From contig OZ024740.1 of assembly GCA_964016885.1 (NCBI GenBank), forward strand, positions 332,134,001 through 332,198,000: a stretch of 64,000 nucleotides of DNA. The letters run 5' to 3'. The first letter of the stretch is position 1, and each line of letters starts with the position of its first letter. Below are positions 42,187 through 43,080 of this stretch, piece by piece. The DNA is from Eledone cirrhosa (lineage: Eukaryota). The position numbers and the translations under genes are program-made. Under the pieces are notes generated by a model, which saw only the letters and a list, made by a program, of their open reading frames with translations, did not search any database and was not told where the DNA came from.

Positions 42187-43080
42187 ACGATAAATTAACG
42201 GAGGCATAGGCCCTCGCTATTCCCTGTAAATAATGTGCTCAAAGGAGAAGAAATCCTGAGCTCTTTAAAATACAATATGTTGAAAAGGTAACACACCAGA
42301 GAGAGATATACAGTGCGCTATCAATAAAACAGGGAATTAGTATCTTTGGATTTGTACGTGTGCTATATAGTTATAGAGGTATTTATTTACGCTTTAATTT
42401 ATATTTTTAATTATCGTGTCTATAGTCTGCCTTTCTGAGGTTATAGATTCCATACACTGGTGGTTTTTTCCCTGTGTTATTGATAGCGCACTGTATATCT
42501 CTCTCTGGTGTGTTACCTTTTCAACATATTGTATTTTAAAGAGCTCAGGATTTCTTCTCCTTTGAGCACATTATTTACAGGGAATAGCGAGGGCCTATGC
42601 CTCCGTTAATTTATCGTGATATTTTGCTCCTAATAACAATCTTTCCTATCTCTGTTTGATTGAGCACACTTCTCTGGGTGGCTTTGGGCTGCCCTTCTAG
42701 CAGTTCTCCCTCAGAGGCCACTGGTTCACTGCCCTTAAACACGCTGTGACTTCTCTCTCCCACGTGTAGCTGTACAGCCACTTTTAAAATTCTTAGTGTT
42801 GTCTGAAATGTATAGCCTTACACACGCTGATGAACCGAGGCTAACCCATTCTTTCAACACATTACTGGTGAAACATATCTTTGGATTAGTATCTTTGGAT
42901 TTGTACGTGTGTTATATAGTTATAGAGGTATTTATTTACGCTTTTATTTATATTTTTAATTAACGTGTCTCTAGTCTGCCTTTCATAGGTTATAGATTCC
43001 ATATACTGGTGTTTTTTTTCCTGTTTTATTGATAACGCACTGTATATCTCTCTCTGGTGTGTTACCTTTTCAACATATTG
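42187..43080 (+). mobile_element. Non-coding element: inverted 5' arm plus about 1.35 copies of a 549 nt unit with a decayed hammerhead
   Basis: 42187-42336 is the reverse complement of about 42467-42617; 42337-42531 is repeated from 42886; CTGATGA ACC..GGT GAAACATATC at 42827-42879. Confidence 0.8.

What the first reader, a model, noticed from the sequence alone, without database searches (positions are those of the whole stretch)
42187..43080. 549 nt unit with partial tandem repeat plus an inverted 5' arm
Seen: an inverted arm (42187-42336), then a unit starting ttagtatctttgg at 42337 that restarts at 42886, about 6 nt past the decayed hammerhead's predicted cut near 42879. A second unrelated family therefore also begins close to its cleavage site. 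Both outer ends fall at short AT microhomologies with the (TA)n target. Inference: reverse transcription primed by base-pairing at both DNA ends (twin-priming-like) on a unit-length RNA.
Basis: partly seen in the sequence, partly recalled or inferred. Interest (0 to 1): 0.7.

Follow-up and report, generated by a model that had tools for sequence, protein, structure and literature searches.

The report
Hammerhead-bearing non-autonomous Penelope-like retroelement
This is a small, protein-free repeat with a hammerhead-ribozyme motif that has the textbook layout of a Penelope-like retrotransposon insertion in a (TA)n tract; it was likely copied from an uncut RNA longer than one unit, and a second copy 26 kb away shares the same inversion junction, so the inverted arm is likely inherited rather than remade at each insertion.

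Summary
The geometry is real. A 150-nt inverted arm (42187-42336, 1 mismatch to 42468-42617) precedes a 549-nt unit and a 195-nt partial repeat (94% identical), between two (TA)n tracts. The predicted cut is misplaced. Stem I pairs over 7 bp only for a cut after 42905, against 1 bp at 42879. The direct part therefore starts 20 nt upstream of the cut and reads across it twice, which excludes a cleaved linear unit-length template. A second copy (16387-16606) has the same left end, inner arm end, junction trinucleotide and nearly the same right end. It equals copy A minus 42340-43028. The two outer ends are fixed sites 86 nt apart in the unit, the Penelope 'tail' signature. Partial tandem, inverted 5'-truncated copy, tail and (TA)n target are all published Penelope-like element (PLE) features. 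Overlap with (TA)n is 3 and 0 nt in this copy (P=0.26), though enriched over 13 hand-picked ends in the window (40 vs 12.4 nt). Verdict: a new member of the non-autonomous PLE / non-LTR retrozyme kind. Two-end priming is plausible; the cleavage-site and unit-length claims fail. The longer tail and the shared junction are the modest points of interest.

The parts
42159..42186 (.). Left (TA)14 target tract
42187..42336 (-). Inverted, 5'-truncated arm (reverse complement of 42468-42617; runs to 42182 with one mismatch). Its outer end is fixed site P2, +261 to +266 nt after the cut
   Evidence: same outer and inner ends in copy B
42187..42272 (-). 86-nt 'tail' present on the arm end only (unit positions 42532-42617)
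   Evidence: tail concept from PMC8557442 and PMC11167929
42337..42885 (+). Full 549-nt unit, no long ORF (longest stop-to-stop frame within the element 74 codons); the cut-to-cut monomer is 39.5% GC
42337..42356 (+). 20 nt retained upstream of the first predicted cut (42356/42357): 3' remnant of a hammerhead
42812..42916 (+). Type I hammerhead motif: stem I 5' strand to 42826, core 42827-42833, stem/loop II 42834-42869, GAAA 42870-42873, stem III to 42904, predicted cut after 42905, stem I 3' strand from 42906
   Evidence: no Rfam match
42876..42905 (+). 14-nt tandem duplication inside stem III; its junction is also present at the start of unit 1, so it pre-dates this insertion
42886..43080 (+). 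Partial second unit (pseudo-LTR), ending at fixed site P1, +175 nt after the cut, with 3 nt shared with the (TA)n tract
43081..43187 (.). Right (TA)53.5 target tract
16387..16536 (-). Copy B arm: same outer end (4-nt overlap with AT tract, to 16382) and same inner end as copy A; 4 clustered differences from unit 1
16537..16606 (+). Copy B direct part: equals unit 2 from 43026 on, carries the unit-2 allele at the one diagnostic site, has an 8-nt duplication, ends 4 nt beyond copy A's right end. Copy B equals copy A minus 42340-43028 (689 nt) with a 3-nt TTA overlap
41680..42161 (+). Adjacent unrelated hammerhead element (about 322-nt unit plus partial repeat, no arm); starts at +1 of its predicted cut; shares the left (TA)n tract

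Best explanation
This is a protein-free, hammerhead-motif repeat with the standard Penelope-like (PLE) insertion layout, likely mobilised in trans by an endonuclease-bearing PLE protein that copies an uncut, longer-than-unit RNA into (TA)n tracts. Inferred steps: (1) a genomic tandem whose two units had already diverged by about 5% is transcribed; the ribozyme, predicted to misfold in this copy, stays uncut. (2) The PLE GIY-YIG nuclease opens a (TA)n tract. (3) Reverse transcription starts at internal, family-fixed sites P1 and P2, 86 nt apart, probably helped by a few nt of AT pairing. The cDNA from P1 gives the direct part, a cDNA from P2 on the other DNA end gave the arm, and the two 5'-truncated products were joined head to head. 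(4) That arm-junction was made once in an ancestral copy and was then carried along with the element, so copies A and B share it; B lost the 689 nt between two TTA triplets, the loop of the hairpin formed by arm and unit 2. Shown: geometry, cut position by stem pairing, shared breakpoints, unit divergence. Inferred: everything about RNA, enzyme and order of events.
For: Layout matches the published PLE pattern: partial tandem, adjacent inverted 5'-truncated copy, tail at one end, (TA)n targets (PMC8557442; PMC3846280; PMC8969392). In vitro, an anole PLE protein cuts and extends both DNA strands at AT-rich sites, starts reverse transcription at two internal sites that bound the tail, uses uncut RNA as the main template and is modelled as a dimer (PMC11167929). 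Both copies in the window end at the same two sites: left identical, right within 4 nt. The direct part retains 20 nt upstream of the cut and spans it twice. Unit divergence 11/196 against arm-unit 1 divergence 1/150 (P=0.015). B equals A minus 689 nt with unrelated flanks (best local score 24 on each side); two random starts share 3 nt with probability 0.023, before counting the identical arm end. Four other families in the window show arm plus tail of about 47-85 nt. Two truncated PLE-like ORFs lie in the window: 12203-13264 has Pfam GIY-YIG at E=1.6e-6 (above cut-off); 10157-10498 has GIY-YIG at E=0.0024 (below cut-off) and the upstream frame 8787-9911 resembles animal RT clusters at 0.96-0.97.
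Against: Only two copies were available, so 'fixed ends' rests on n=2, and the left ends are not independent if the arm is inherited. No sequence link to either PLE ORF region in the window (z -1.0 to 0), so the helper is unidentified. The tail is 86 nt against the published 30-40 nt, and the start regions are not AC-rich as in the anole element. PMC11167929 reports initiation without homology to the cut DNA, and copy A's own overlaps (3 and 0 nt) are not significant (P=0.26). The divergence contrast vanishes with arm B (4/150, P=0.29), and arm A carries the unit-2 allele at 1 of 3 diagnostic sites. Gene conversion between inverted arms could also keep arm and unit 1 alike. B's link to unit 2 rests on one site. 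Rfam finds no hammerhead and the fold z-score is -0.68. Family Y's two armed copies have different junctions.
Confidence: 0.65

Rival explanations
1. Same element, but the arm is made anew at every insertion by two-end priming, with both cDNAs stopping at recurrent structural barriers (a U6 run for the arm, ribozyme stem III for the direct part), so identical junctions recur. B was deleted after insertion.
For: The arm's inner end sits at a U6 run and at the base of a predicted stem, 42468-42476 with 42573-42583. In the 201-nt family two of three segments start at the same nucleotide inside the ribozyme. The anole protein extends both strands.
Against: It needs two independent cDNAs to stop at the same nucleotide twice. 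Inner-junction microhomology is only 1 nt. Family Y junctions differ between its copies.
Confidence: 0.17
2. One reading: twin priming by base-pairing on a unit-length RNA released by the hammerhead. The linear form is excluded; the surviving form is a circular monomer copied more than once round, as proposed for retrozymes.
For: Intact catalytic core. Metazoan retrozymes accumulate as circles (PMC7229834) and a circular template was proposed for PLE tandems (PMC4209133). AT overlaps are enriched over 13 ends, 40 vs 12.4 nt. The neighbour starts at its cut.
Against: The start is 20 nt upstream of the cut. One circle should give identical units, but they differ at 11 of 196 sites while the arm differs at 1 of 150. 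The ribozyme fold is predicted to be rare: pair 15.1-16.1 has probability about 0.01. Breakpoints are shared between two copies.
Confidence: 0.08
3. The arm arises by self-priming or fold-back of the nascent nucleic acid (the antisense self-priming model for Penelope palindromic junctions), not by priming at the second DNA end.
For: PMC3846280 proposes self-priming for head-to-head PLE junctions. The unit has an internal inverted repeat, 42468-42475 with 42576-42583, exactly at the arm's inner end. Several window families have near-perfect palindromic centres.
Against: Copy A's junction is not a palindrome centre: 131 nt separate the arms. Fold-back does not explain why the arm's outer end falls at a second fixed site with AT overlap.
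Confidence: 0.07
4. The arm is a DNA-level rearrangement or assembly artefact at a fragile (TA)n cruciform, unrelated to retrotransposition.
For: Long (TA)n tracts flank both sides. Inverted repeats trouble assemblies (PMC8557442).
Against: A second locus 26 kb away with unrelated flanks has the same arm and junction but its own substitutions. The pattern recurs in other families and in the PLE literature.
Confidence: 0.03

Closest known systems
Endonuclease-bearing Penelope-like elements (Penelope/Poseidon, Neptune, Hydra, Naiad); structure as in Craig et al. 2021 (PMC8557442) and Arkhipova et al. 2013 (PMC3846280)
   Same: Partial tandem forming a pseudo-LTR, adjacent inverted 5'-truncated copy head to head, tail at one end only, (TA)n target, type I hammerhead in the repeat.
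   Different: No ORF; 549-nt unit; tail 86 nt instead of 30-40 nt; no sequence link to an autonomous element found in the window.
Metazoan non-LTR retrozymes (Cervera and de la Pena 2020, PMC7229834; Li, Clavereau and Pollet, bioRxiv 10.64898/2026.07.22.740005)
   Same: Non-coding tandem unit with a type I hammerhead, GC under 50%, unit length inside the reported 51-972 bp range, co-occurring with PLE ORFs; proposed to be non-autonomous PLE derivatives.
   Different: Only 1.36 units and one complete ribozyme. The parts I read do not describe inverted arms or tails. Diverged units argue for a linear dimer template rather than a circle.
Anole Poseidon element PAc in vitro (Frangieh et al. 2024, PMC11167929)
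   Same: Two internal reverse-transcription start sites bounding the tail, both DNA strands cut and extended, AT-rich target, uncut RNA as template, ribozyme not active unaided.
   Different: PAc start sites are in an AC-rich stem-loop and reported as non-homologous to the target. Here ends mostly overlap the (TA)n tract by a few nt (1-7 nt at 11 of 13 ends in the window, 0 at 2) and the sites are 86 nt apart.
L1 twin priming (Ostertag and Kazazian 2001; recalled, seen only as a reference-list entry)
   Same: An inverted 5' segment joined head to head to a direct segment, read as priming from both DNA ends.
   Different: No poly(A) end; the arm duplicates sequence that is also in the direct part; both ends are at family-fixed internal sites; the junction recurs in two copies.

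Membership tests
Non-autonomous Penelope-like element | Partial tandem forming a pseudo-LTR | tested here: met
   549-nt period, 199-nt repeat at 94%
Non-autonomous Penelope-like element | Inverted 5'-truncated copy adjacent at the 5' end, head to head | tested here: met
   Arm 42187-42336
Non-autonomous Penelope-like element | Tail extension at one end only, between two recurrent end points | tested here: met
   Present in 2 of 2 copies; 86 nt rather than the published 30-40 nt
Non-autonomous Penelope-like element | Insertion into (TA)n or AT-rich target | tested here: met
   4 of 4 ends in TA tracts
Non-autonomous Penelope-like element | Type I hammerhead motif in the repeat | tested here: met
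   Full core with stems I-III; 0 of 5000 shuffles. Rfam negative
Non-autonomous Penelope-like element | Sequence similarity to the pseudo-LTR of an autonomous PLE | tested here: inconclusive
   None to the 3' regions of the two truncated PLE-like ORFs in the window; the rest of the genome was not available
Non-autonomous Penelope-like element | Mobilisation by a PLE RT/GIY-YIG protein in trans | not testable with these tools
   PLE-like ORFs co-occur in the window; no functional link shown
Non-autonomous Penelope-like element | Target-site duplication | tested here: inconclusive
   Both flanks are pure (TA)n, so a duplication cannot be resolved
Metazoan non-LTR retrozyme | Non-coding tandem unit, low GC, with type I hammerhead | tested here: met
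Metazoan non-LTR retrozyme | [quoted passage not shown] | tested here: not met
   One complete ribozyme; the first keeps only its last 20 nt. This copy is at best an inactive-type member
Metazoan non-LTR retrozyme | Self-cleavage and circular RNA in vivo | not testable with these tools
   Folding predicts the active shape 5.3 kcal/mol above the minimum (3.6 without the duplication)
L1-type twin-priming inversion | Poly(A)-primed 3' end | tested here: not met
   Right end lies at an internal site
L1-type twin-priming inversion | Inverted and direct segments largely non-overlapping in the RNA; breakpoints unique to each event (recalled) | tested here: not met
   The arm is wholly duplicated in unit 1; breakpoints are shared by 2 of 2 copies

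The most novel reading that the evidence does not exclude
These small PLE parasites record the missing steps of Penelope transposition: a dimeric RT primes both broken DNA ends at two fixed RNA sites about 50-90 nt apart using a few nt of AT pairing on uncut dimer RNA, and the resulting inverted arm then becomes a heritable part of the transposing RNA. The PLE inverted repeat would thus be a transmitted lineage character, not only a per-insertion scar, and hairpin-loop deletion would yield ribozyme-free palindromic mini-elements such as copy B.
Probability: 0.3. Interest if true: 0.6.

Novelty: new member of a known kind. Interest (0 to 1): 0.33.

Why it matters
The overall structure is already described for Penelope-like elements, so the finding itself is not surprising. 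It matters modestly because the origin of PLE inverted repeats and tails is still called undefined in the literature read (PMC8557442) and the one in vitro study read reports priming without target homology. A genome rich in short, young, non-coding PLE copies with two fixed ends lets three open questions be tested by alignment alone: whether priming uses microhomology in vivo, whether the template is an uncut linear dimer or a circle, and whether inverted arms are inherited. It also ties retrozymes to PLE machinery by insertion anatomy rather than by sequence phylogeny.

Tried and rejected
Rfam, whole window at gathering thresholds: 0 matches; 41000-43300 at E up to 10: 16 weak matches, none a hammerhead. 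Cut at 42879: rejected, 1 bp of stem I. Relatives in GTDB genomes with a 16-nt ribozyme seed: 120 loci returned from a scan that stopped at 18 of 64 parts; the longest BLAST alignment to the element was 27 nt, so these are chance matches. Local alignment of the unit to 14 other regions of the window, including both PLE 3' regions and the neighbour: no z above 2.5, none clearly beyond its shuffles. Coding potential: none. 'Starts at the cleavage site' as a rule: 1 of 13 tabulated segment starts; the set is biased towards elements that retain a ribozyme core, and two minus-strand cut positions (family Y) were taken by symmetry with the plus-strand copies because the automatic pick was poor. Segmental duplication of A and B: flanks unrelated. 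Literature searches: Penelope+hammerhead+microhomology 0 papers; Penelope+'twin priming' 3 papers, none about PLEs by title, one checked and holding the terms only in its references; 0 papers. These cover only the open library, so absence from print is not established. No eukaryotic genome collection was available, and the viral and metagenome contig collections stayed unchecked, so no family consensus could be built.

Full report
Observation. The window is microsatellite-rich animal DNA. An ionotropic glutamate receptor exon lies near 55.0-55.2 kb on the minus strand (E=8e-7). That it is cephalopod DNA is my recall from a SINE and the repeat density, not a test. The reported geometry is real. 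The arm 42182-42336 is 99% complementary to 42468-42622, and 42336-42534 repeats at 42885-43083 with 94% identity and period 549. Exact counts are 1 difference in 150 nt for arm vs unit 1 and 11 in 196 nt for unit 1 vs unit 2. Flanks are (TA)14 and (TA)53.5. There is no long ORF.

The ribozyme. A structural scan of both strands found a complete type I hammerhead with core at 42827, stems of 7, 4 and 3 bp, and the cut after 42905. No comparable motif arose in 5000 dinucleotide shuffles of the unit; the whole window gave 4 hits with stem I of 6 bp or more against 0 in 30 shuffles. A 14-nt duplication in stem III explains the misreading. The one substitution between the units inside stem I (42363) turns a G-C into a G-U pair and so keeps pairing. 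Against activity: the hammerhead shape lies 5.3 kcal/mol above the minimum-energy fold, pair 15.1-16.1 has probability about 0.01, the region folds no better than shuffles (z -0.68), and Rfam finds nothing. So the core is intact and the fold is predicted to be poor.

Consequence for the template. The direct part begins 20 nt upstream of the cut and crosses it at 42356/7 and 42905/6. A cleaved linear monomer cannot give that. A circular monomer should give identical units, but the units differ by 5.6% against 0.7% for arm A vs unit 1 (Fisher P=0.015). With arm B the contrast is not significant (4/150, clustered in 10 nt, P=0.29), and conversion between arms is an untested alternative. The likeliest template is an uncut transcript of a tandem with already diverged units. 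The neighbouring unrelated family does start at +1 of its cut, but it is the only one of 13 segment starts tabulated; the others range from -406 to +121 (a set biased towards ribozyme-retaining elements, with two cut positions set by symmetry).

A second copy. BLAST of the element against the window found copy B at 16382-16606. It has the same left end, the same inner arm end, the same TTA after it, and a right end 4 nt further out. It aligns to copy A with 42340-43028 removed, apart from 5 substitutions in the arm and an 8-nt duplication, and it carries the unit-2 allele at the one diagnostic site. Flanks are unrelated. Two conclusions follow. The two outer ends are family-fixed sites, P1 (+175 to +182 after the cut) and P2 (+261 to +266), 86 nt apart. 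The arm-junction is shared, most simply by descent, although recurrent stops cannot be excluded with two copies.

Microhomology. I measured exact overlap between element and (TA)n at 13 ends chosen by hand because the flank was TA and the element's continuation was known; ends in other flanks or without a known continuation were left out. Values were 3, 2, 0, 4 (copies A right, B right, A left, B left) and 4, 4, 2, 5, 1, 3, 0, 5, 7 (other families). The sum is 40 against a two-sided null mean of 12.4 (P=1e-4). One end from each of six other families gives 15 vs 5.9 (P=0.025); the four A/B ends give P=0.03; copy A alone gives P=0.26. Ends within a family are not independent, one end may be a 5' end, and later mutation blurs boundaries. 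Short pairing at priming is suggested for the class and not shown for this copy.

What it is. Craig et al. (PMC8557442; passages) describe PLE insertions as partial tandems with an adjacent inverted 5'-truncated copy, a 30-40 bp tail at one end and (TA)n targets. Arkhipova et al. (PMC3846280; passages) describe the same and propose self-priming. Goubert et al. (PMC8969392; passages) list it as standard. Frangieh et al. (PMC11167929; parts 1-2 of 4; a supplement search found none of my terms in 3 files and figure S2 was not seen) show both-strand cutting and extension, two internal start sites bounding the tail, uncut RNA as main template, and initiation without target homology. Cervera and de la Pena (PMC7229834, parts 2-3 of 6; PMC4209133, part 2 of 4) and Li et al. 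(bioRxiv 10.64898/2026.07.22.740005, parts 1-3 of 5; supplements not seen and they may list related families) cover retrozymes as non-autonomous PLE derivatives. An Octopus vulgaris repeat paper counts 31 recently active PLE families and has no occurrence of hammerhead or ribozyme in its main text (PMC13282606; passages; supplement listed, not read). The window holds two truncated PLE-like ORFs and four more families with arm plus tail of about 47-85 nt (lengths read by eye from printed sequence). No sequence link to a helper was found.

Mechanism. Shown: anatomy, cut position by pairing, shared breakpoints, unit divergence. Inferred: transcription of a diverged tandem, cutting of (TA)n by a PLE GIY-YIG nuclease, reverse transcription from P1 on one DNA end and P2 on the other, head-to-head joining of two truncated cDNAs, and then transmission of the arm with the element, with B as a hairpin-loop deletion. 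I put 0.9 on the identity as a non-autonomous PLE-type element and 0.65 on the whole account. Rivals are recurrent de novo junctions (0.17), a circular monomer (0.08), self-priming (0.07) and DNA-level rearrangement (0.03).

Verdict. It is a new member of a known kind. The 86-nt tail and the shared junction are small departures worth a genome-wide check. My searches of the open library found no paper on inherited PLE inversion junctions or on microhomology at PLE ends, but most subscription papers are not covered. Interest 0.33.

Noticed in passing
window 8766-11372 (+): 5'-truncated PLE-like element between TA tracts: RT-like frame 8787-9911, GIY-YIG frame 10157-10498, and a well-formed type I hammerhead (core 11096, cut after 11159, 9-bp stem II) about 213 nt before its 3' end. 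Clade not determined.
   Followed up: partly
window 12203-13267 (+): Second truncated PLE ORF (354 aa) with a Cys-rich linker and GIY-YIG domain (Pfam E=1.6e-6); Neptune-like by recall, not tested.
   Followed up: partly
window 41680-42161 (+): Unrelated hammerhead element, about 322-nt unit plus partial repeat, starting at the first nucleotide after its predicted cut (ambiguous by about 2 nt against a GA run). Copy A lies in its 3' TA tract.
   Followed up: yes
window 16194-16371 and 29817-30057: Copy B also sits directly behind another repeat family's end; that family's other copy has a perfect 78-nt palindrome at 29817-29894. TA tracts left by one element seem to be reused by the next.
   Followed up: partly
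window 47463-48384 and 46312-46900: Young element with 297-nt arms at 99.7%, minimal hammerhead in both arms and a tail of about 55 nt; a second, 86% identical copy ends at the same site.
   Followed up: partly
window 48522-48905 and 50104-50555: Two palindromic hammerhead elements of one family (78% identical) with a tail of about 85 nt, on the left in one and the right in the other; junctions differ.
   Followed up: partly
window 39661-40058 and 19921-20069: 201-nt family with long stem III; two of three segments start at the same nucleotide inside the ribozyme's core/stem II region, hinting at a recurrent stop. Tail about 78 nt.
   Followed up: partly
window 56947-57431, 63353-64000, 61443-62218: Further arm or partial-tandem elements in TA tracts: a palindrome with tail of about 47 nt, nested inverted repeats cut by the window end, and a 599-nt-period partial tandem with no hammerhead core found.
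   Followed up: partly
window about 54990-55180 (-): Exon of an ionotropic glutamate receptor (amino-terminal domain); the element may lie in an intron of this gene, not tested.
   Followed up: partly
window 62330-63367 (-) and 6217-6741: LINE reverse transcriptase fragment (Pfam RVT_1 E=4e-10, DUF6451) with a 96% identical 434-nt copy at 6217-6650; RTE-like by recall.
   Followed up: no
window 41090-41400, 22397-22425, 39110-39140, 45827-45857, 47166-47196, 49336-49374, 49878-49936: More hammerhead core motifs of varying quality; the window carries at least 5 with full stems.
   Followed up: partly
window 41420-41540; 5539-5664, 31099-31281, 46105-46213, 59733-59921 and others: tRNA-like SINE and a high-copy SINE-like family; classification by recall only.
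   Followed up: no
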